Below are positions 1,318 to 36,062 of a stretch of DNA of 64,000 nucleotides, piece by piece. The stretch is taken from the NCBI GenBank assembly GCA_902612605.1, contig CACMDY010000003.1:41253-105252 (forward strand), given 5' to 3'. The notes beneath the pieces were generated by a model. The model saw nothing but the letters and a program-made list of their open reading frames with translations, ran no database searches and had not been told where the DNA came from. The stretch is from an uncultured Pelagibacteraceae bacterium. Its GTDB lineage: Bacteria > Pseudomonadota > Alphaproteobacteria > Pelagibacterales > Pelagibacteraceae. The position numbers were made by a program, and so were the translations under genes. Positions within the stretch are counted from its first letter, which is position 1. The number at the start of each line of letters is the position of its first letter.

Positions 1318-2625
1318 TTACAAAGTTTTAGCAAATTGCTTTAACAATTTAGCTGCACCTTTGTCCATATTCTGCAATCCTTTTTCGATTGATATTTTGC
1401 CGTTTAACATTGGCTCAATATTTTCGTAAATTACTTCACGAATTTGGGGCCAGTTACCAGCTCTATATCCACCAGGAATAGTTGAACCTTCTAAGCTTAA
1501 TTGTTCACCAACTGCTTTATGATATGGAGAAGCTCTATAGAAATTTATAGTTTCAGCTAACTCTATACCACCTTTAGTCACTGCAGAGTAACCAGTCATA
1601 TTGTGATAATACAGATCCATTTCTGGAGAACCCATAAATTCTATAAATTTAGCAAGTCCTTTGTACTCTTCCTCAGTATGACCATTTAAGATCCAGTTAG
1701 CAGCACCACCTATAAAAGTTGGATACTCTTTTCCTTTGGTTACTGAATCCCAGTAAGGAATATGATTAACTGTAAAGTTTGGAACAACACCTTTCATTCC
1801 ACCAAATGATGCAGCAGAACCAAACCAAAATGCAGCTTCACCTGCTATAAATGGTGCTTGATTGTCTCCCCACGCTCTTCCTTTATAGCCATATAAACCT
1901 TTATCATACCATTCTTTAACTTTCTTCCAATGATAGACAAATGCATCAGTTTCAGCGAATAAAGTTTTTGTAGGAACAGCATCGTAACCATTATTTCCAT
2001 CTAACATTAATAAATTATGTCTAGAAAAGAAATTTTCAGTCCAAATCCATGGACTATGACTTTGAACTAAAGGAATGTATCCAGCAGCTTTGATTTTTGG
2101 AGCCATGGCCTCAAATTCTTCATAAGTTTTTGGCACAGATTCAATTCCAACCTCTTTCAAAATGTCCATGTTTGCATACATCAAACAAGTTGAACTATTG
2201 AAAGGTACACCAATCATTTTTCCATCAGAGTCGGCATAGAAATTTTTAATGCCTGGAATATAGTTGTCAGCATCTACATCAATGCCATATTTCTTAGCCA
2301 TTTCTTCAAAACCGATAACAACACCATTTTTTACTTGAGCTACCATGATTGCAGCACCAGCATCATAAACCTGTGAATAGTGTGGTTGGTCGCCTGCTCT
2401 AAATGCAGCAATAGTTGCCGCCATGTTATCTTCATAACTTCCTTTTCCTGTAGGAATGACCGTATATTGATCTTGTGAAGCGTTAAATCTATTTGCAATT
2501 TCAATAATTACATCACCAAGAAAACCACTGTTTCCGTACCACCAATGAATTTCTGTTTTTGAATAACTGTGTGATGTAAAAGAGAAAGTAAATAGAATTG
2601 TTAAAACACTAAGTATTTTTTTCAT
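1318..2625 (-). CDS. ugpB: Extracellular solute-binding protein family 1, UgpB-like (sn-glycerol-3-phosphate)
   Basis: Signal peptide; motifs EIHWW, YKGSYED-like, AAFRAG, PFNSST, GGA. Neighbours are ugpA/ugpE and glpD. Confidence 0.8.
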   Translation of the reverse strand: MKKILSVLTILFTFSFTSHSYSKTEIHWWYGNSGFLGDVIIEIANRFNASQDQYTVIPTGKGSYEDNMAATIAAFRAGDQPHYSQVYDAGAAIMVAQVKNGVVIGFEEMAKKYGIDVDADNYIPGIKNFYADSDGKMIGVPFNSSTCLMYANMDILKEVGIESVPKTYEEFEAMAPKIKAAGYIPLVQSHSPWIWTENFFSRHNLLMLDGNNGYDAVPTKTLFAETDAFVYHWKKVKEWYDKGLYGYKGRAWGDNQAPFIAGEAAFWFGSAASFGGMKGVVPNFTVNHIPYWDSVTKGKEYPTFIGGAANWILNGHTEEEYKGLAKFIEFMGSPEMDLYYHNMTGYSAVTKGGIELAETINFYRASPYHKAVGEQLSLEGSTIPGGYRAGNWPQIREVIYENIEPMLNGKISIEKGLQNMDKGAAKLLKQFAKTL

Positions 2626-28779: not shown

Positions 28780-29839
28780 TTAAACCTTCGGTAGAGGCTT
28801 CGCATATACCTTTTTCTGTTACAAATGCTGTAACATACTTAGCTGGTGTTACATCAAAAGCTAAATTTAATGATTTGCTCTTTTCGGGATATATTAAAAC
28901 TTTATCGACTTTATTATCTTTGTTAATTCCATCCACATGAGAAAGTTCTTTTGGATCTCTTTCTTCTATTGGAATATCTTTAGAGTTTTTTAAATTCCAA
29001 TCTATAGTTGAACTTGGTAAAGCAACATAAAAAGGTACCTTATTATCATGAGCAGCAAGAGCTTTTAAATATGTGCCAATTTTATTGCACACATCTCCGT
29101 TAGATAATGTCCTATCTGTTCCAACAATACACATATCGACCTGTCCTCTTTGCATTAATATTCCACCTGTATTATCTGCTATAATTGTATTTGGAATTTC
29201 TTCTTCATTAAGTTCATATGATGTGAGGTTTGCTCCTTGATTTCTTGGCCTAGTTTCATCTACCCATACATGTATTGGTATTCCTTTTTTATGTGCATGA
29301 TAAATAGGAGAAGTTGCCGTTCCCCAATCTATTGTAGCTAACCAACCTGCATTGCAATGTGTGAGAATATTTACGGTATCTTTCTTTTTATTATATATAT
29401 CTTCAATAATATTTAATCCATTTTTACCAATACTTTCACAAAAGCCCTCATCTTCTTTACAAATTTCTTTAGCTTCATTGAGTGCAACATTAAATAAATC
29501 TCCAGGTTCAACAAATGATAGTTTATTGTTCATTCTATGCACTGCCCATTGAAGATTTATAGCCGTTGGCCTAGAAGCAACTAATTCTTCCGAACTTTTT
29601 TTTATAAAATCTAAACTGTTATTTTCTTTTATAGCTAAAACTAGTCCAAATGCAGCTGTACCTCCGATTAATGGAGCACCTCTCACCTCCATTGTTTTTA
29701 TGGCATTTATCGCGTCTTTAACTGAACTTAATTCTTTTATTATAAATTTATGTGGAAGCTTTGTTTGATCTATTATTTTTACAACTTGTTTTTCTTCATC
29801 AAACCAAATTGTTTTATATTCAACGCCATTAATTTTCAT
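28760..29839 (-). CDS. mtnA: S-methyl-5-thioribose-1-phosphate isomerase
   Basis: VRGAPLIG, SRPTAINL, LTHCNAG.LAT, ETRP..QGA.LT and GTDR...NGD..NKIGT motifs. Confidence 0.95.
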   Translation of the reverse strand: MKINGVEYKTIWFDEEKQVVKIIDQTKLPHKFIIKELSSVKDAINAIKTMEVRGAPLIGGTAAFGLVLAIKENNSLDFIKKSSEELVASRPTAINLQWAVHRMNNKLSFVEPGDLFNVALNEAKEICKEDEGFCESIGKNGLNIIEDIYNKKKDTVNILTHCNAGWLATIDWGTATSPIYHAHKKGIPIHVWVDETRPRNQGANLTSYELNEEEIPNTIIADNTGGILMQRGQVDMCIVGTDRTLSNGDVCNKIGTYLKALAAHDNKVPFYVALPSSTIDWNLKNSKDIPIEERDPKELSHVDGINKDNKVDKVLIYPEKSKSLNLAFDVTPAKYVTAFVTEKGICEASTEGLNGLFKN

Positions 29840-31278
29840 TATTTTAAATTATCAATAAAATATTTACTAGCAATGGCAGCAGTTTCTCCACCATTGTCAC
29901 CACCAGTTGTCGTACCTCTTTTTCCACATTTTTTATAAATCTTCACATACATTTTTCTGTATAATTTGTTTGCTTCTCCTGATTTAGCAGATGCTTTTTC
30001 AAAATCTTTTTGCCACTTTTTAATATCCATTTTAAATTCTTTTTTCATAACATCAGATAGACTTTCAGATATAAAACCCTGGTCATTTAATTTCCAACCA
30101 TCTGGGACGTACATTTCACATTTATTGAAGTGAACACATCCTTTACATTTACTTGCCGGAGAATCTGTATAAAAATCATGGTGCCATCCATCTTTTACAA
30201 TTACCTCGACATCTGCACCTGCTTTTTTTAATCTTTCAGCATAATCTTCACAAAATCTTGCTGGTGTATAATCATCTGCACCTCCAAGTAAAAATAATAA
30301 TTTAGTTTTTGTAGGAGTTGGATTTTCAAATCTCATATTAAAACAATCTGGAGCCATGGGTAATGATGCAAGAAAATATCTATCTTTTCCAATTACTGCC
30401 TCTGAAAATTTTTTTTCAGCTGCCATGTATGAAGCTGTTCCACCTCTTGATAAACCAGTAATTCCTAATTTTGTAGCATTAACGCGAGGATGCTTATCTA
30501 ATATATCGTAAGCAACTAATGCATCCAATTCTCCAGCGTTAATTGAGACTTTGCCTTGATTTTTGTGAACATTCTCTGTTCCCCTGCTTGTAAAATTATC
30601 TATCTCAAAAATACCTATATTATTTTTTAATAATTGATTTTTAAAATCATTACGCCAAGACTGAAGGGGATTTGTAAACTCGCTGGGCCCTCCACTACTA
30701 TGCACAGTCACAACAACTGGTAAATTTTTTCCCTCTTTTGGTAAAATTAACTTTCCAGATACTTCAACTGGAGAATTAATATAAGATCCATTTATGATTA
30801 CCAGAGGAATACCTGGATTGTAACTTGTAAATTTAATTATTTCTTCACTTGCCTCACTTAAATACTTTAAAGGGGTGAAATGTGCAGGACGATCAACTTT
30901 AAAAAACCTACCTTTGCACCTCCACGGTTTTTCAAATGGCATTCTAGCTTTTAAAGATGCTTCATTTCCATTAATAAATTCACCTTTAATTTTTAATTTT
31001 TCTGAGCCCCACTCCCATTTCCAACTTTTTGTAATAGAAACCTTATTATCTTTAATTGTACCAACAAATTTTATATTTTCTCTTCCCCAGTTCTTTTGTT
31101 CAAAAGGTCCTAATTGAAATTTATTATTTTCAACATTTACTATATAAGAAGACTCATACCATTCATTTCCACCTTGTTTGCAACCAAGATCTATTTTCCA
31201 TGAATTGGGATATTCCTCAGCCGTAAGATTATTATTCCAAAGTAATGATAAAATAATTAGAATTATAATTTTTTTCAT
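29839..31278 (-). CDS. Exported alpha/beta hydrolase (dienelactone-hydrolase-like) with an extra N-terminal domain
   Basis: Signal peptide; oxyanion HSSGG, nucleophile GLSRGG, acid GGADDY, His in GWHHDF; 8 Cys. Confidence 0.75.
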   Translation of the reverse strand: MKKIIILIILSLLWNNNLTAEEYPNSWKIDLGCKQGGNEWYESSYIVNVENNKFQLGPFEQKNWGRENIKFVGTIKDNKVSITKSWKWEWGSEKLKIKGEFINGNEASLKARMPFEKPWRCKGRFFKVDRPAHFTPLKYLSEASEEIIKFTSYNPGIPLVIINGSYINSPVEVSGKLILPKEGKNLPVVVTVHSSGGPSEFTNPLQSWRNDFKNQLLKNNIGIFEIDNFTSRGTENVHKNQGKVSINAGELDALVAYDILDKHPRVNATKLGITGLSRGGTASYMAAEKKFSEAVIGKDRYFLASLPMAPDCFNMRFENPTPTKTKLLFLLGGADDYTPARFCEDYAERLKKAGADVEVIVKDGWHHDFYTDSPASKCKGCVHFNKCEMYVPDGWKLNDQGFISESLSDVMKKEFKMDIKKWQKDFEKASAKSGEANKLYRKMYVKIYKKCGKRGTTTGGDNGGETAAIASKYFIDNLK

Positions 31279-32204
31279 TTTATTCGTGAAGCGATGTATT
31301 CTTTAATTGTTGGATTATAATACTGAAAACAAAGTCCAACATCCATATTATGACCCTTTTTTACTGGTTCCTCCCAGTCATCTCCTTTTCTCTTACATCT
31401 CTTTCCATTAATTTTATAATTTTCTGAAATTATTATTCTTTTCATTCCAGGAATTTCTTCTAACCAATCAGATAATAATCCTTCATATTTATCCTTAGGA
31501 TGTGTGAAGGCTAATATAGGAACTTTTAAATTATTTTTAATTTCGTCATTCATCTTTTGTCGAACATCATGAGGTCCTTGATTTTTTTTTCTAAATTTAG
31601 CCATTGCTTTTTCTACACCATTTTTCTTTACTTTATATTTTGAAGACAATTTTCCAAAACATGCTTGCATATAAGATATGCCTCCACCCACCTTATCTGG
31701 GTACCTGGACATAAACAATAACGTGGTTAAACCACCACAAGAATGTCCTGTAACAAAAACTTGTTTTCTTGGTACTCCCGCATCTACAAATTTTTCAATT
31801 AATTCTAAATTTAATTCTACTCTTTTATCTAATATATGCTTACCTTCATAAATTTTTGGTTGAGGCTTTAAATACCACCAATCCTTTTTTTTAGACATAT
31901 CTCCTCTAAGATGATTTGAGCATAAATTATAAACCATTATTTTTTTTCCATTAACCTCTTGGTCTATCAAAGATGCATGATTTCTTAACATTGATACCCA
32001 TGTACAATTTTTTGTGGTATCATTTTCGTCTTGTCCGTGATTATAAATTAAAATAATTTTATTTTTAGGATCCTTAATTTCAAAATTCTTAATCAATCTA
32101 ACCTCTTTATTAATGAATCCGCTTTCATTAATCTTATCGTTAGGTCCTGCATAAGCTAGAGTTGAAAATAATATAAAAGTAAAAATTAGTGATATCTTTC
32201 TCAT
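31275..32204 (-). CDS. Exported alpha/beta hydrolase of unknown substrate
   Basis: Signal peptide; YNHGQ, nucleophile elbow GHSCGG, candidate Asp in HPKDKY and His in KGHNM; 6 Cys. Confidence 0.72.
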   Translation of the reverse strand: MRKISLIFTFILFSTLAYAGPNDKINESGFINKEVRLIKNFEIKDPKNKIILIYNHGQDENDTTKNCTWVSMLRNHASLIDQEVNGKKIMVYNLCSNHLRGDMSKKKDWWYLKPQPKIYEGKHILDKRVELNLELIEKFVDAGVPRKQVFVTGHSCGGLTTLLFMSRYPDKVGGGISYMQACFGKLSSKYKVKKNGVEKAMAKFRKKNQGPHDVRQKMNDEIKNNLKVPILAFTHPKDKYEGLLSDWLEEIPGMKRIIISENYKINGKRCKRKGDDWEEPVKKGHNMDVGLCFQYYNPTIKEYIASRIK

Positions 32205-33104: not shown

Positions 33105-33632
33105 ATGGATTTAAAAGAACATATTAGATCAATTAAAGACTATCCTAAAAAAGGAATTCTTTTCAGAGATATAACAACACTTATAAAAAATGAAAAGGCA
33201 TTCAAAGAATGTATTAACCAAATTGTTGAAAGATCAAAAAAATTCCAGTTTGATAAAATTGCAGCTGTAGAATCTAGAGGCTTTGTTTTTGCATCAGCTA
33301 TTTCTTATATACTTGATAAACCGTTCATAATGTTGAGAAAAAAAAATAAATTACCTGCTGATGTTCATTCAGTAGACTTTGAACTTGAGTATGGAACAGC
33401 AACAATAGAAGTCCATAAAGATTCTTTTGACGAAGGTGATAAAGTCTTAATTATAGACGATTTAATTGCTACTGGCGGCACTGCAGAAGCTGCTGCTAAA
33501 TTAATAGAGATATCAAAAAGCAAGGTTGCAGGTTTTATTTTTGTAATTAATTTATTTGATCTTGGTGGTACTGAAAATCTTTTGAAAAAGGGTTATGAAG
33601 TAGAAAATCTTTTAGATTTTCCTGGACATTAA
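33105..33632 (+). CDS. apt: Adenine phosphoribosyltransferase
   Basis: DYPKKGILFRDI, ESRGF, LEYGT and PRPP motif IIDDLIATGGT. Confidence 0.96.
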   Translation: MDLKEHIRSIKDYPKKGILFRDITTLIKNEKAFKECINQIVERSKKFQFDKIAAVESRGFVFASAISYILDKPFIMLRKKNKLPADVHSVDFELEYGTATIEVHKDSFDEGDKVLIIDDLIATGGTAEAAAKLIEISKSKVAGFIFVINLFDLGGTENLLKKGYEVENLLDFPGH

Positions 33633-34477
33633 TTTGCTGTCATTATTGCTTGAAAGGGACCACTTCCAATCCAAATTGAGTCTGCGCCCGTGTTTGATAA
33701 ATGCATACCCTCTCCAACATTAAATGTCATACTTAAAGAAGTTGTTGCTCCAGTAACTATGATAGGATCTGCAAATTTTACTAGACCTTCTAGCTTTACA
33801 ACTTCACCTGTGTTAGCTGCTCTATGTTCGTTACTATCAACTAAATATCCAACAATACTCGCTGTTGTTCCATTTATATTATCAACTTCAGCCTTTGACG
33901 AGAATGCATCGTCATGTGCACCAAATTGAGCTAATGTTTCAACAAATTTTCCTGGTGTTATAGCGCTTGAACCGCAAACAGAATTTCCAGTATGAGTGCT
34001 ACCTTTTGCATGTGTTCCAGAGCCAGCTTTTGTTCCACAAAAAACTCCAGTTCCACTGGATGTTCCTGTTTTAGCACCACTAAGCTCGCCTGCCCATGTT
34101 AAACCAAAGGTATTATCCATGTAAGCATATCCATGAGTATAAGTTCCATTTGGAGGTCGTGTATAAGTTCCATCAAGAACAATTTCAGCTCCTTGAGTTA
34201 CAGCTGCAGTAGCCCCACTTGAATTATTAAACACTTGAGAACAAGGAGTTAAAACAACTGTAGATGATGTTGTTGCTTCAGTTGGGGCACTAGTACATAA
34301 ATACAGTTTATAAATTACTATCTCATATTCAGCAGGTGCTGTATCACAACCACTGTTAATATCACTTTCTGATACAACTCCTGAAGATATCGTGCAAGCT
34401 TCAGCTTTATTAGCATTAAACATTTCAAAAATAAAAATTGTAGATAAAACTAAAAATAAATACTTAATATTTTTCAT
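33629..34477 (-). CDS. Exported Ser/Thr/Gly-rich hypothetical protein with 6 Cys (predicted beta-rich)
   Basis: Signal peptide ending AEA. Translationally coupled to the upstream barrel gene (TAA-ATG with an AGGAGG SD). No family recognised. Confidence 0.8.
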   Translation of the reverse strand: MKNIKYLFLVLSTIFIFEMFNANKAEACTISSGVVSESDINSGCDTAPAEYEIVIYKLYLCTSAPTEATTSSTVVLTPCSQVFNNSSGATAAVTQGAEIVLDGTYTRPPNGTYTHGYAYMDNTFGLTWAGELSGAKTGTSSGTGVFCGTKAGSGTHAKGSTHTGNSVCGSSAITPGKFVETLAQFGAHDDAFSSKAEVDNINGTTASIVGYLVDSNEHRAANTGEVVKLEGLVKFADPIIVTGATTSLSMTFNVGEGMHLSNTGADSIWIGSGPFQAIMTAN

Positions 34478-35326
34478 TTAAAATCCTCCTGCCTTAACAG
34501 TAAAACCTGCTCCTTTTTTCTTAATTACATTTTCTCTTCTAACCTTTTCATGCATTCTATCTTTCATGGAAATTCTTTCAAAGGCATCACTACTAAATAG
34601 AGAAGTGCCAGGATTTTTTATACTATTGCTATACTTAAGATTGATAAAACTTTGATCATTGTGATGATCGTAATTAGTATGACCAATTTCAAATGATAAC
34701 CCAGAATTTGGTACTTTAATCTGAGTAGAGATTTCTAAACCTTGAAAATCTTTTCCACCAGAAACTTCAAAATCGAAAGCTTTCAAATAAGCTTTCATAG
34801 ATGGTATATATGGAAGATGTGCACCTAACTCAACATCGAAACCATCAATAGCCTCTTCATTTTTGTTATCTTTTCCTTTTTTATTAGAGCTTTGGGCAAA
34901 ATACTGATTGTAATTTAAATCAAGAATAGAAGATTTAATCTCAGCACCAATGCTAAATCTTTGGTGCTCATAATCAAATTCATAATCATAAAAAGCATTT
35001 ATACCAAATAATATACTTTCATCATCAGATAAATATCTTTGTCCAAGTCCGAAATTAAATGTTTCTCTGTCACTGTCGTGTAAAAATAATGATCCTTGGA
35101 AAAAAGATAAATCTGAGCTATCTTCTGAAAATATCTTAAATGTTTGTATTCCAATTTCTGGTTTAATAGTTTCAATTTTTTTTATTGAAAAATCTGTATT
35201 TTCAAAATTCTCCTCCAAAAAACTTTCTAAAGAAGAATAAAATCTATCTACTACTTCATCTACTTTAGCAAAAGAAGCTGAGATAAAAAGCAAATTAAAT
35301 ATAAGAATTTTTAATAAAAATTTCAT
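34478..35326 (-). CDS. Inverse-autotransporter (intimin/invasin) beta-domain protein without a passenger
   Basis: Signal peptide. N.GLGQRY...LFGINAFYDY...HQRFSIGAE...N.Y...DGFDVEL...LPY.P and a terminal KVRREN pattern resemble the intimin/invasin barrel and linker. Ends in Phe. Confidence 0.8.
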   Translation of the reverse strand: MKFLLKILIFNLLFISASFAKVDEVVDRFYSSLESFLEENFENTDFSIKKIETIKPEIGIQTFKIFSEDSSDLSFFQGSLFLHDSDRETFNFGLGQRYLSDDESILFGINAFYDYEFDYEHQRFSIGAEIKSSILDLNYNQYFAQSSNKKGKDNKNEEAIDGFDVELGAHLPYIPSMKAYLKAFDFEVSGGKDFQGLEISTQIKVPNSGLSFEIGHTNYDHHNDQSFINLKYSNSIKNPGTSLFSSDAFERISMKDRMHEKVRRENVIKKKGAGFTVKAGGF

Positions 35327-35370
35327 ATTTTATTTATAAAGATATATTCAACAATTGAAAGGTTTAAGAA

Positions 35371-35447
35371 TGGTAGCGGGAAGTGGGATCGAACCACTGA
35401 CCTCGGGCTTATGAGTCCCGCGCTCTAACCAACTGAGCTACCCCGCC
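35371..35447 (-). tRNA. tRNA-Met (anticodon CAT), most likely elongator
   Basis: Reverse complement GGCGGGGTAGCTCAGTTGGTTAGAGCGCGGGACTCATAAGCCCGAGGTCAGTGGTTCGATCCCACTTCCCGCTACCA folds as a cloverleaf. 77 nt, TTCGA T-loop, encoded CCA. Confidence 0.95.
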
Positions 35448-35612: not shown

Positions 35613-36062
35613 TTAATTTATTTGTTCAAAAAACTTATCTTTTAATTGGTATGTGAATGGATATTCTTTTCCAATTGGTTGAAATTTGGTTTTGATTACA
35701 ATTACATTTTGTTTATCCAATTTAAATTTCCAAGTTAATTTAATATCTCCAGAAAAAACTCTTAACTTACCTAAGTTTGTAAATCTCCATCCATCCTCTG
35801 AGATAATTTTACCATCTTGATATCTTTTATAACTTGTTTCATCAAATATATAAGTTACAACACCTTGATTTCTCTCATCATCCAAAGTTATTGCATAATT
35901 ATTTAAAAATTCGGCTGTTTGAGATTTATTCAAACTTTTCTTAGATATAGATTTCAAAAAGTCAGTAGTTTTATCAATTGTTTCATCTATTTTATCTTTG
36001 GCTAATGAGATAGATGATAAAAAAAGAAAAATGAAAAGAATGCTAAATATTTTTTTAAACAT
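35613..36062 (-). CDS. Exported hypothetical protein, 149 aa
   Basis: Signal peptide, in an operon with the AEC transporter. No family recognised. Confidence 0.72.
   Translation of the reverse strand: MFKKIFSILFIFLFLSSISLAKDKIDETIDKTTDFLKSISKKSLNKSQTAEFLNNYAITLDDERNQGVVTYIFDETSYKRYQDGKIISEDGWRFTNLGKLRVFSGDIKLTWKFKLDKQNVIVIKTKFQPIGKEYPFTYQLKDKFFEQIN

What the first reader, a model, noticed from the sequence alone, without database searches (positions are those of the whole stretch)
33629..35326. Candidate split inverse-autotransporter: passenger-less intimin-like barrel coupled to a separate secreted protein
The 282-aa gene resembles only the beta-barrel and linker of type Ve (intimin/invasin) autotransporters and ends in Phe, with no Ig-like passenger. 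The next gene starts at the very next base. The barrel's last codons (GCA GGA GGA TTT TAA) supply a perfect AGGAGG SD 7 nt before that ATG. The partner is separately exported, Ser/Thr/Gly-rich, predicted beta-rich and has 6 Cys, as expected for a surface-displayed passenger. This may be a two-partner variant in which the barrel exports or anchors a non-covalent passenger, for example a variable adhesin, surface shield or phage-receptor decoy. It lies directly 3' of tRNA-Met, with no terminator hairpin between them and no integrase nearby.
Basis: partly seen in the sequence, partly recalled or inferred. Interest (0 to 1): 0.75.

Follow-up and report, generated by a model that had tools for sequence, protein, structure and literature searches.

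The report
Split inverse-autotransporter surface module
Two tightly coupled genes in an ocean bacterium (SAR11) encode an intimin-type outer-membrane barrel with no surface domain of its own and a separately exported protein that nearly always sits next to such barrels in many aquatic bacteria; this uncharacterised module varies within natural populations and probably puts a replaceable protein on the cell surface.

Summary
Gene 34478-35326(-) is a genuine inverse-autotransporter (type Ve) beta-domain (Pfam IAT_beta, E 1.8e-37). It aligns with intimin and invasin through the pore-traversing linker and stops 14 residues later, so it has no passenger. Gene 33629-34477(-) starts at the next base behind an AGGAGG. 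It has a Sec signal and six conserved Cys, and matches no Pfam, NCBIfam or PDB entry.

New here:
- The barrel belongs to a large clade of passenger-less barrels.
- In 69 genome loci and 71 metagenome contigs, from SAR11 to Methylophilaceae, gammaproteobacteria and Chlorobi, a partner-type gene lies beside the barrel, almost always immediately downstream. No third gene recurs.
- Partners often diverge far faster than barrels (98% versus 30% identity).
- In seawater metagenomes the module recruits only 7-26% of the flank depth, and empty-site junctions join apt directly to tRNA-Met.

Best reading (about 0.5): a two-partner type Ve system in which the barrel exports and/or anchors a non-covalent passenger. 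Export, anchoring and function remain untested.

The idea was already proposed (Tsai 2010; Heinz 2016; ZirT/ZirS). I found no description of this partner family or its linkage to the barrel. I rate it a new variant of a known kind.

The parts
34478..35326 (-). Barrel gene: 282-aa passenger-less inverse autotransporter (type Ve) beta-domain protein
   Evidence: ORF. Pfam PF11924 IAT_beta E 1.8e-37. Matches to PDB invasin 4e1t and intimin 4e1s. Public records name it 'inverse autotransporter beta domain-containing protein'.
35267..35326 (-). Barrel signal peptide (aa 1-20, MKFLLKILIFNLLFISASFA|K)
   Evidence: Read from the translation. No signal-peptide predictor was available.
35153..35266 (-). 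Short hydrophilic N-terminal region before the barrel (aa 21-58). It is presumed periplasmic, like the 'alpha-domain' of Tsai 2010.
   Evidence: It lies before the Pfam match, which starts at aa 59. Tsai 2010 describe a periplasmic alpha-domain in nearly all family members. This is an inference.
34529..35152 (-). IAT_beta domain (aa 59-266): beta-barrel plus linker
   Evidence: The Pfam match covers profile positions 64-279 of 279. The clade profile aligns with the whole crystallised intimin and invasin beta-domains.
34523..34546 (-). Linker motif KVRRENVI (aa 261-268), the best-conserved stretch of the clade. It matches intimin LVQRNNNI.
   Evidence: Conserved columns V262, R264 and N266 (invariant) and I268 (at least 90%) in the 47-sequence alignment. 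Alignment to intimin and invasin. Role of the intimin linker and its terminal beta-strand.
34481..34522 (-). C-terminal tail KKKGAGFTVKAGGF (aa 269-282): a connector plus one short beta-strand, then the end of the protein. It sits where the first strand of a passenger domain would be.
   Evidence: All 47 aligned barrel-only relatives end 10-16 residues after the linker with a similar strand. The position relative to intimin D00 is inferred.
34485..34490 (-). AGGAGG Shine-Dalgarno inside the barrel's last codons, 7 nt before the partner ATG
   Evidence: Sequence. An SD-like motif lies before 48 of 69 partner genes but before only 8 of 69 barrel genes.
33629..34477 (-). Partner gene: 282-aa Sec-exported, six-Cys, beta-rich protein of an unnamed family
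   Evidence: ORF. 779 homologues. No Pfam, NCBIfam or PDB sequence match. AlphaFold2 pLDDT 65.6 with a confident beta core. No fold match.
34397..34477 (-). Partner signal peptide (aa 1-27, cleavage predicted after AEA). It is not a lipobox.
   Evidence: Translation. In most family members the first Cys is not at position +1 and has no lipobox before it.
34088..34342 (-). Most conserved part of the partner (aa 46-130: PxxYxxxIYKLxLCTSxP ... PPxGTY). It is a candidate recognition or core region.
   Evidence: Highest column conservation across 32 diverse members. Highest model confidence.
33632..33670 (-). Partner C-terminal motif IGSGPFQAIMTAN, a terminal beta-strand that is invariant in SAR11. 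GxGPF plus a strand is present in most other lineages.
   Evidence: Alignments A1 and A5. Model confidence is low here.
33631..35369 (.). Segment that is present or absent in natural populations: both genes plus the spacer up to tRNA-Met
   Evidence: Metagenome contigs join 33630 to 35370 (+G) in 3 of 4 runs, with variants 33630->35369, 33625->35370 and 33634->35371. Depth over the module is 0.07-0.26 of the flanks. There is no att-like repeat at the borders.
35327..35370 (-). 44-nt spacer between tRNA-Met and the barrel ATG, with a conserved TATAAAT-like box and no SD
   Evidence: Sequence. The box is conserved upstream of the barrel in SAR11 Ia loci. No terminator-like site. Promoter function is an inference.
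35371..35447 (-). tRNA-Met(CAT), the upstream border of the flexible segment
   Evidence: ARAGORN. The same tRNA lies 44 nt before the barrel in most close SAR11 loci scanned (13 of 18).

Best explanation
The two genes form one translationally coupled outer-membrane module, a two-partner variant of type Ve secretion.

Gene 1 is an inverse-autotransporter beta-barrel. It keeps the conserved linker that runs through the pore and ends, on the cell-surface side, in a connector plus a single short beta-strand.

Gene 2 is exported to the periplasm by Sec and forms short-range disulfides. In the proposed mechanism it is then displayed at the surface as a non-covalent passenger. The barrel exports it and/or anchors it. 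The most likely docking mode is beta-strand pairing between the barrel's exposed terminal strand (or its small extracellular sheet) and the conserved N-terminal half or terminal strand of the partner.

The module behaves as flexible-genome surface equipment. It is present or absent at a tRNA-Met islet in SAR11, and its partner is replaced or diverges rapidly in other lineages. This is expected for a structure exposed to phages or grazers.

Shown here: the family of the barrel, conserved gene coupling, the partner's export signal and family coherence, purifying selection, partner diversification, and presence/absence in metagenomes.

Inferred: surface location, dependence on the barrel, the docking mode, and the biological role.
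For: - Barrel identity. Pfam IAT_beta E 1.8e-37. The clade profile matches invasin (1e-29) and intimin (8e-24) through the linker.
- Passenger-less clade. The nearest ~150 cluster representatives are nearly all 280-360 aa and end with the barrel. They share the ending KVRRENxIVKQ plus a short strand.
- Linkage. The partner lies immediately downstream in 69 pairs from genome contigs; the gap is 0 nt in 28 pairs and between -14 and +4 nt in most. In metagenome contigs 67 of 71 barrels have a partner-profile hit downstream, and the other 4 have a divergent secreted 8-Cys ORF.
- Reverse test. Partner-first look-ups find IAT_beta immediately upstream.
- No third gene recurs across non-SAR11 loci.
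- An SD-like motif lies before 48 of 69 partners but before only 8 of 69 barrels.
- All partners have signal peptides and no lipobox. The six Cys are conserved, at spacings of 16, 18 and 21 residues.
- Both genes are under purifying selection (dN/dS 0.12 and 0.18).
- Partner diversification. Barrels 98% identical carry partners 30% identical, and DNA similarity stops 77 nt into the partner. For barrels 80-97% identical, more than half of partner pairs are below 40% identity.
- Population variability. Recruitment dips over the module and empty-site junctions occur. In one SAG, surface-glycan genes are inserted at the same islet.
- Both genes are represented in marine metatranscriptome contigs.
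- Precedent. ZirS and ZirU are secreted via the ZirT barrel, as cited by Heinz 2016. Tsai 2010 proposed non-covalent passengers for passenger-less barrels.
Against: - No direct evidence places the partner outside the cell.
- In the solved intimin and invasin beta-domains the lumen is filled by the protein's own linker, as described. No route is known for a separate chain.
- Secretion of inverse autotransporters is thought to be driven by a covalent hairpin.
- Co-folding could not be run.
- The partner's fold has no match, and its two termini are modelled with low confidence.
- One partner homologue has no barrel within 4 kb.
- Gene order is reversed in one locus.
- The barrel tail is unchanged between partners that share only 30% identity. 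This argues against a highly specific tail-partner fit.
- In SAR11 the barrel can diverge more than the partner.
- The metagenome depths are contig word depths, not read counts.
Confidence: 0.5

Rival explanations
1. Periplasmic complex. The partner stays in the periplasm and binds the barrel's short N-terminal periplasmic region or its periplasmic turns. The pair would then have an envelope-structural or sensing role, and nothing would be displayed outside the cell.
For: The barrel lumen is plugged by its own conserved linker in homologues. The partner has six conserved Cys, which suits a protein that folds in the periplasm. The barrels have an N-terminal hydrophilic region that Tsai 2010 predict to be periplasmic. 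Heinz 2016 even propose periplasmic Ig domains for ZirT.
Against: The partner's extreme divergence or replacement beside near-identical barrels is typical of exposed surface proteins rather than periplasmic ones. So is the module's presence/absence in an islet that also collects surface-glycan genes. The strict retention of the linker and of a terminal external strand would have no explanation.
Confidence: 0.2
2. Co-regulated but physically independent. The barrel is a small stand-alone outer-membrane protein, such as a pore or structural protein. The partner is a soluble secreted or periplasmic protein, such as a binding protein. The two share only an operon.
For: Neither protein has a demonstrated interaction. 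One orphan partner exists. Tsai 2010 suggest other roles for some short barrels.
Against: Adjacency survives across Alpha-, Beta- and Gammaproteobacteria and Chlorobi in unrelated genomic contexts, with no third conserved gene and mostly 0-4 nt gaps. Tandem duplications copy the pair as a unit. Such conservation of a bare pair usually marks physical partners; this last point is general knowledge and an inference.
Confidence: 0.12
3. A decayed classical inverse autotransporter. A stop codon split an intimin-like gene, and the second ORF is the remnant passenger.
For: The genes abut with no spacer, and the barrel ends about where a passenger would begin.
Against: The partner has its own conserved start and signal peptide. 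Both genes are under purifying selection. The split architecture is conserved in more than 130 loci across phyla. No fused form appears among the 150 nearest barrel clusters. The partner matches no Ig-like (Big) or other Pfam family.
Confidence: 0.02
4. A polymorphic toxin-like cassette. A conserved N-terminal secretion region is followed by a variable C-terminal effector delivered through the barrel.
For: The partner's N-terminal half is more conserved than the rest. Alleles are swapped just after the signal peptide.
Against: No conserved downstream immunity-type gene exists. In the window the next gene is a convergent, overlapping apt. No toxin domain or catalytic motif was found, and the only near-universal residues are Cys, Gly, Pro and Tyr.
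Confidence: 0.03

Closest known systems
ZirT / ZirS / ZirU of Salmonella, and the related SinH/SinI, Yfr4 and Ahy1 operons ('two-partner inverse autotransporters', Heinz 2016; Tsai 2010)
   Same: An inverse-autotransporter-family barrel gene is followed in the same operon by one or more genes for Sec-exported proteins that have no barrel. For ZirS and ZirU, barrel-dependent secretion is reported (as cited).
   Different: ZirT-type barrels keep their own Ig-like domains, and their partners resemble those domains. Here the barrel has no passenger at all. The partner matches no Ig-like (Big) or other Pfam family and has no fold match. The hosts here are free-living plankton, not enteric pathogens.
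Intimin and invasin (classical type Ve inverse autotransporters; PDB 4e1s, 4e1t)
   Same: Signal peptide, short periplasmic region, homologous beta-barrel, and a conserved linker motif with its terminal strand.
   Different: There is no covalently attached passenger and no LysM domain. The protein ends 14 residues after the linker motif.
The monophyletic 'very short C-terminal extension' clade of inverse autotransporters noted by Heinz 2016, and the passenger-less Int/Inv proteins of Tsai 2010 (which include a Pelodictyon luteolum protein)
   Same: This barrel very probably belongs to that clade. The nearest 150 clusters are barrel-only. A Pelodictyon luteolum locus is among the relatives found here (L072).
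   Different: Those papers report no conserved partner. Tsai 2010 examined the genomic context of the short sequences and found nothing indicative of function. The partner family and its linkage are described here.
Classical two-partner secretion (type Vb: FhaC/FHA)
   Same: In logic: an outer-membrane barrel gene next to the gene of its separately exported substrate, which carries a conserved N-terminal region.
   Different: The barrel is not of the Omp85 type and has no POTRA domains. The partner has no TPS domain and is only about 255 residues long when mature.
Slam (DUF560) with its surface lipoproteins
   Same: By analogy only: an outer-membrane protein encoded next to a beta-rich surface-displayed substrate. 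This comparison is from my own knowledge.
   Different: The partner has no lipobox, and the barrel is IAT_beta rather than DUF560.

Membership tests
Inverse autotransporter (type Ve secretion; Pfam PF11924 IAT_beta) | N-terminal Sec signal peptide | tested here: met
   MKFLLKILIFNLLFISASFA|K, read from the translation. Judged by inspection; no predictor was available.
Inverse autotransporter (type Ve secretion; Pfam PF11924 IAT_beta) | Homologous beta-barrel domain of the intimin/invasin type | tested here: met
   Pfam 129.8 bits against a cut-off of 22.3, E 1.8e-37. phmmer against PDB: 4e1t 3.9e-9, 4e1s 4e-7. Clade profile: 1e-29 and 8e-24.
Inverse autotransporter (type Ve secretion; Pfam PF11924 IAT_beta) | Linker after the last barrel strand, with the conserved R..V.R.N.I motif that traverses the pore and ends in an external beta-strand | tested here: met
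   KVRRENVI (aa 261-268) aligns with intimin LVQRNNNI and invasin LVDRNNNI. Conserved columns. Passage through the pore is inferred by homology and not modelled.
Inverse autotransporter (type Ve secretion; Pfam PF11924 IAT_beta) | Covalently attached C-terminal passenger (Ig-like, lectin or other domains) | tested here: not met
   The protein ends 14 aa after the linker motif, and no other Pfam domain is found. It is therefore a member of the barrel family but is not an autotransporter in the strict sense.
Inverse autotransporter (type Ve secretion; Pfam PF11924 IAT_beta) | C-terminus exposed at the cell surface | not testable with these tools
   This needs protease shaving or epitope labelling.
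Two-partner inverse autotransporter (ZirT/ZirS type) | Barrel gene in an operon with one or more genes for barrel-less, Sec-exported proteins | tested here: met
   0-nt junction with an SD. The arrangement is conserved in 69 + 71 loci.
Two-partner inverse autotransporter (ZirT/ZirS type) | The partner shares Ig-superfamily domains with the barrel protein's own passenger | tested here: not met
   The barrel has no passenger. None of 33 partners matches an Ig-like (Big) or any other credible Pfam family. No fold match.
Two-partner inverse autotransporter (ZirT/ZirS type) | Secretion of the partner depends on the barrel | not testable with these tools
   This needs genetics or heterologous co-expression.
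Classical two-partner secretion (type Vb) | Omp85-type TpsB with POTRA domains, and a TpsA with an N-terminal TPS domain | tested here: not met
   Only IAT_beta is found in the barrel, and there is no Pfam hit in the partner.
Slam-dependent surface lipoprotein system | Lipobox-bearing substrate and a DUF560 barrel | tested here: not met
   No lipobox: the window partner has AEA|C, and in most homologues the first Cys lies 1-6 residues after the cleavage site. The barrel is IAT_beta.
tRNA-linked integrative genomic island | Integrase gene, and a direct repeat of the tRNA 3' end at the far border | tested here: not met
   The ten neighbouring ORFs scanned (about 5 kb each side) include no integrase. 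No att-like repeat. A precise presence/absence polymorphism at the tRNA 3' end does exist.

The most novel reading that the evidence does not exclude
Passenger-less inverse-autotransporter barrels and this unnamed six-Cys protein family together form a widespread, possibly ancestral, two-chain form of type Ve secretion. The barrel's single exposed C-terminal strand would hold a separately encoded and freely exchangeable surface protein by strand complementation. In SAR11, OM43 and other abundant plankton, this exchangeable protein would be a main phage- or grazer-exposed surface determinant. That would explain its allelic turnover and its presence/absence in natural populations.
Probability: 0.35. 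Interest if true: 0.82.

Novelty: new variant of a known kind. Interest (0 to 1): 0.68.

Why it matters
Passenger-less inverse-autotransporter barrels have had no assigned function since they were noticed in 2010 and 2016. The authors of those papers could only guess that the barrels carry non-covalent passengers, or that they represent the root of the family.

This work gives that clade a specific, conserved partner, which turns the guess into an experiment: two small genes, many natural allele pairs, and hosts that can be cultured.

If the barrel exports or holds a separate chain, the accepted covalent-hairpin picture of type Ve secretion would need extending. It would also offer a compact two-piece surface-display scaffold.

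For marine microbiology, the finding identifies a population-variable outer-membrane module in SAR11, OM43, SUP05-like and other dominant plankton. The module sits in a small flexible islet beside tRNA-Met, making it a candidate determinant of phage or grazer interactions in genomes that carry very few such genes.

Tried and rejected
1. Known-family assignment of the partner failed. Pfam, NCBIfam and PHROGs gave nothing for the window protein, and Pfam and NCBIfam gave nothing for 33 diverse members. PDB sequence and profile searches gave only noise.
3. Co-folding of the two chains was not possible.
4. Fused barrel-partner proteins. None of the 150 nearest barrel clusters matches the partner profile. 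The idea of a partner domain fused at the N-terminus was dropped.
5. Lipoprotein or Slam-like reading. Rejected, because there is no lipobox.
6. Split-pseudogene reading. Rejected.
7. Toxin-immunity reading. Rejected, because no conserved third gene exists.
8. Integrative-island reading. There is no integrase and no att-like repeat.
9. Broad barrel alignments were too divergent for the genome scan. A narrower one worked.
10. The profile search for distant partners returned only 15 proteins because of the word filter.
11. Exact-sequence look-ups of the window barrel, apt, MTAP and the 149-aa protein, intended to fetch empty-site contigs, found nothing on record.
12. Metatranscriptome contigs are too short to show co-transcription of the two genes, or read-through from the tRNA.
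13. Literature searches for SAR11 with inverse autotransporters, for DUF3442, and for barrel-only systems found no description of this module.
Full report
**1. What is in the sequence**

The window carries two abutting minus-strand ORFs of 282 codons each. The upstream one is 34478..35326 and the downstream one is 33629..34477. The junction reads GCA GGA GGA TTT TAA ATG. The second gene therefore starts at the base after the first gene's stop, and AGGAGG lies 7 nt before its ATG.

tRNA-Met(CAT) lies at 35371..35447 on the same strand, 44 nt before the first ATG. The scan finds no terminator-like site in that spacer. At the other end, the second gene overlaps the convergent apt gene (33105..33632) by 4 nt.

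The surrounding genes are MtnA, MTAP and apt on one side, and a Mem_trans permease, a TauD-type dioxygenase, a hydrolase, IMPDH and an isocitrate/isopropylmalate-type dehydrogenase on the other. No integrase is present. Database relatives identify the organism as a Pelagibacter (SAR11).

**2. The barrel**

The first protein matches Pfam IAT_beta (PF11924) at E 1.8e-37, over profile positions 64-279 of 279. It also matches the crystallised beta-domains of invasin and intimin.

A profile of its nearest relatives aligns with those two structures from the first strands to the end of the constructs. This includes the linker: intimin RYDLVQRNNNIILE corresponds to RLEKVRRENKIVKQ in the profile. In intimin this segment runs through the barrel lumen. 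Its last residues form a small external beta-sheet with loops 4 and 5, and that sheet is needed for stability and secretion.

The window protein has KVRRENVI at residues 261-268, followed by only 14 more residues, KKKGAGFTVKAGGF. By position these are a connector plus one beta-strand, sitting where the first strand of a passenger domain would begin. That reading is an inference.

The protein therefore belongs to the barrel family but fails the defining passenger criterion of an autotransporter. Public records already call it "inverse autotransporter beta domain-containing protein" or "adhesin/invasin".

**3. It belongs to a large passenger-less clade**

I scored the barrel against 1.84 billion cluster representatives. 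This gave 1520 hits, and nearly all of the 150 best are 280-360 residues long with the match running to their last residue. Forty-six of them, aligned with the window protein, all end 10-16 residues after the linker motif with a similar short strand. The linker motif is the best-conserved stretch in the alignment.

Heinz et al. [quoted passage not shown] Tsai et al. [quoted passage not shown] They also reported that the genomic context of the short sequences gave no functional clue.

**4. The partner**

The second protein has a signal peptide with a predicted cleavage site after AEA. It has six Cys, at positions 28, 44, 61, 79, 147 and 168, and a composition rich in Thr, Gly, Ser and Ala.

It has 779 homologues at E below 1e-3. 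The best 120 are all SAR11 proteins of 264-289 residues, 74-99% identical to it. It matches nothing in Pfam, NCBIfam, PHROGs or PDB.

With a mixed alignment, AlphaFold2 gives a beta-rich model with pLDDT 65.6 and pTM 0.67. Residues 50-130 and 170-250 are confident. The N-terminal 45 residues, a central loop and the last 30 residues are not. Foldseek finds no similar fold in PDB or BFVD.

**5. The pair is conserved far beyond SAR11**

A scan of one genome per species returned 79 loci with related barrels. They come from:
- many SAR11 lineages;
- Thioglobus;
- Methylophilaceae (OM43), including HTCC2181;
- Methylococcaceae;
- Porticoccus and other Cellvibrionales;
- Sedimenticola;
- Polynucleobacter;
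- Parvibaculum;
- two Chlorobiaceae;
- several contigs from MAGs labelled Bacteroidota.

I built profiles of the SAR11 partner and searched all ORFs of these loci. After one iteration, a partner-family gene was found on the same strand immediately after the barrel in every locus with enough downstream DNA, apart from two loci. Thioglobus carries a divergent secreted Cys-rich ORF there instead. L038 has its partner upstream of the barrel.

Of the 69 complete pairs, the gap is 0 nt in 28 and between -14 and +4 nt in most others. Among the non-SAR11 loci, only the barrel and the partner recur; no third gene does.

A second, independent sample of 80 metagenome contigs gave the same result. Of 71 barrels with room downstream, 67 have a partner-profile hit. 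The other 4 have the Thioglobus-type secreted 8-Cys ORF, which overlaps the barrel stop.

Starting instead from partner homologues, two look-ups found IAT_beta immediately upstream. One 6-kb contig has a partner with no barrel within 4 kb.

Other arrangements also occur:
- Tandem duplicated pairs (L021, L022, L028, L048).
- A partner-barrel-partner order (L042).
- One locus with the partner upstream only (L038).

**6. Features of the partner family**

Across 32 diverse members, all have signal peptides. The first Cys usually lies a few residues after the cleavage site and has no lipobox, so these are not lipoproteins. The six Cys are conserved, as are the motifs PDxYxxTxYxxGLCTSxP, PPxGTY and GxxCWT, and in most members a terminal GxGPF plus a beta-strand.

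The N-terminal half (residues 46-130) is the most conserved part. The sequential Cys spacings of 16, 18 and 21 residues suggest three short-range disulfides; this is an inference. From my own knowledge, closely spaced Cys pairs are typical of type V passengers, which must cross a narrow channel.

**7. Relative evolution of the two genes**

Among 19 close SAR11 sequences, both genes are under purifying selection. dN/dS is 0.12 for the barrel and 0.18 for the partner. Mean identity is 88% for the barrel and 80% for the partner across all locus pairs whose barrels are at least 80% identical, most of them SAR11.

The picture is very different in Methylophilaceae and related freshwater and marine lineages:
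- L055 and L053 have barrels that are 98% identical and partners that are 30% identical. Their DNA similarity (96.5%) covers only 320 nt upstream, the barrel, and the first 77 nt of the partner, which encode its signal peptide.
- L054 and L042 have barrels 90% identical and partners 21% identical.
- The two barrels of L048 are identical, while their partners are 66% identical.
- In the metagenome sample, for barrels 80-97% identical, more than half of partner pairs are below 40% identity.

The opposite also occurs in SAR11. Between the window and L023, the barrel is 56% identical and the partner 73% identical. The two genes are therefore shuffled as modules. Across lineages, the partner is usually the faster-changing and replaceable part.

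**8. The module is flexible in natural SAR11 populations**

I laid contigs from four seawater metagenomes, from four different studies, on the window. At 95% or more identity, and also at 80% or more, depth over 33670-35339 is only 0.07-0.26 of the median depth of the flanking genes.

In three of the four runs, contigs join 33630 directly to 35370 with one inserted G. This makes a TGA stop for apt that abuts the 3' end of tRNA-Met. Three further junction variants were also seen. Many related cells therefore lack exactly these two genes.

There is no att-like repeat at the borders. In most close SAR11 genomes scanned (13 of 18), the same tRNA lies 44 nt before the barrel. In L003, a GT2 glycosyltransferase, a sugar epimerase/dehydratase and a methyltransferase are inserted between the tRNA and the barrel. 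SAR11 lineages with the ~55%-identical barrel type carry the pair in another genomic context, with no tRNA nearby.

The interval between apt and tRNA-Met is thus a small flexible islet that carries cell-envelope genes. One caveat applies: these depths are assembler word depths of contigs, not read counts.

**9. Expression**

Marine metatranscriptome contigs cover both genes at levels similar to the neighbouring genes. They are too short to prove co-transcription.

An SD-like motif lies inside the barrel's last codons before 48 of 69 partner genes. Only 8 of 69 barrel genes have such a motif upstream. This fits translational coupling, and possibly an excess of partner over barrel; the latter is an inference.

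**10. Most likely mechanism**

I favour a two-partner type Ve module, at about 0.5. In this reading, the barrel inserts in the outer membrane with its linker in the pore and presents one orphan beta-strand outside. The partner, exported by Sec, becomes a non-covalent passenger that the barrel exports and/or anchors, probably by strand pairing.

Four observations speak for surface exposure:
- the partner's allelic turnover beside conserved barrels;
- the module's presence/absence in populations;
- its residence in an islet with glycan genes;
- the strict retention of the linker and the external strand.

The precedent is ZirT with ZirS and ZirU, where secretion via the barrel is reported (as cited).

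Against this reading:
- no route is known for a separate chain through a plugged 12-stranded barrel;
- the accepted mechanism uses a covalent hairpin;
- the barrel tail is unchanged between very different partners;
- nothing here locates the partner.

The rivals are these:
- A periplasmic complex (0.2).
- Mere co-regulation (0.12).
- A split pseudogene (0.02). It is refuted by the partner's own signal peptide, by purifying selection and by the absence of fused relatives.
- A toxin-like cassette (0.03), for which there is no immunity gene.

**11. Novelty and verdict**

The barrel's identity is already in public annotation. The idea of a non-covalent passenger is 15 years old. Two things appear to be undescribed in the literature I could search: the specific, conserved partner family, and its population behaviour. 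The latter includes near-universal linkage to the passenger-less clade across phyla, allelic replacement, and presence/absence at a tRNA-Met islet in SAR11.

I rate this a new variant of a known kind, with interest 0.68. It makes an old, open question about passenger-less inverse autotransporters directly testable. It also flags a variable surface module in some of the most abundant bacteria in the sea.

Noticed in passing
window 29839..31278 (-) and 31275..32204 (-): A 479-aa secreted ORF with a GLSRGG nucleophile-elbow-like motif and no Pfam hit lies next to a 309-aa secreted ORF with GHSCGG. The 479-aa gene is absent from the otherwise syntenic locus L001. This stretch also recruits poorly in metagenomes, and one contig skips 31281-32212. 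It looks like a second small flexible islet.
   Followed up: partly
window 35613..36062 (-): A 149-aa secreted ORF lies just upstream of tRNA-Met. It is conserved in L001 and gives only a weak, sub-threshold DUF6705 match. It is not part of the module in other taxa.
   Followed up: partly
L003 1207..3765: In one SAR11 single-cell genome, a GT2 glycosyltransferase, a NAD-dependent sugar epimerase/dehydratase and a methyltransferase are inserted between tRNA-Met and the barrel. The site therefore collects cell-surface glycan genes.
   Followed up: yes
L040, L053, L055: Near-identical barrels occur in MAGs labelled Methylomagnum (Gammaproteobacteria), Betaproteobacteria and Methylophilaceae; for L040 and L055 the N-terminal 60 residues of the partner are also near-identical (read, not compared in full). 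Between L055 and L053, only 320 nt upstream, the barrel and 77 nt of the partner are alignable. This points to either recent transfer or recombination of the barrel segment, or to mis-binned contigs.
   Followed up: partly
L021, L022, L028, L048, L032, L073, L042, L038: The module is duplicated in tandem or nearby in several genomes, including SAR11, with divergent second pairs. L042 has the order partner-barrel-partner. L038 has the partner only upstream of the barrel.
   Followed up: partly
L069 4857..5407: In one Porticoccus genome the partner matches are split over two short ORFs of 133 and 50 aa. This may be a frameshift or a pseudogene.
   Followed up: no
L087 4001..4855: A partner homologue sits on a 6-kb metagenome contig with no barrel within 4 kb upstream or 0.9 kb downstream. 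It is preceded by a 472-aa putative lipoprotein with a poly-Gly linker.
   Followed up: partly
L037 4885..5895; L123, L132, L133, L136 downstream ORFs: A second, divergent partner type follows barrels in Thioglobus and in four marine metagenome contigs. It is 336-366 aa, secreted, has 8 Cys in the four metagenome copies, and ends ...GLYITISAS... The partner profile does not detect it.
   Followed up: partly
window 35327..35346 and the equivalent positions in L002-L017: A TATAAAT-like box is conserved 6-12 nt upstream of the barrel ATG in close SAR11 loci, and no Shine-Dalgarno is present. This may be a promoter that gives a very short or absent leader.
   Followed up: no
window 33629..33632: The partner and the convergent apt gene overlap by 4 nt (TTAA holds both stop codons). 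In the empty-site allele, the apt stop becomes TGA and directly abuts the tRNA-Met 3' end.
   Followed up: yes
L035 469..541 and 2035..2111: One SAR11 locus carries two tRNA-Met genes upstream of the barrel. This again suggests rearrangement at this site.
   Followed up: no
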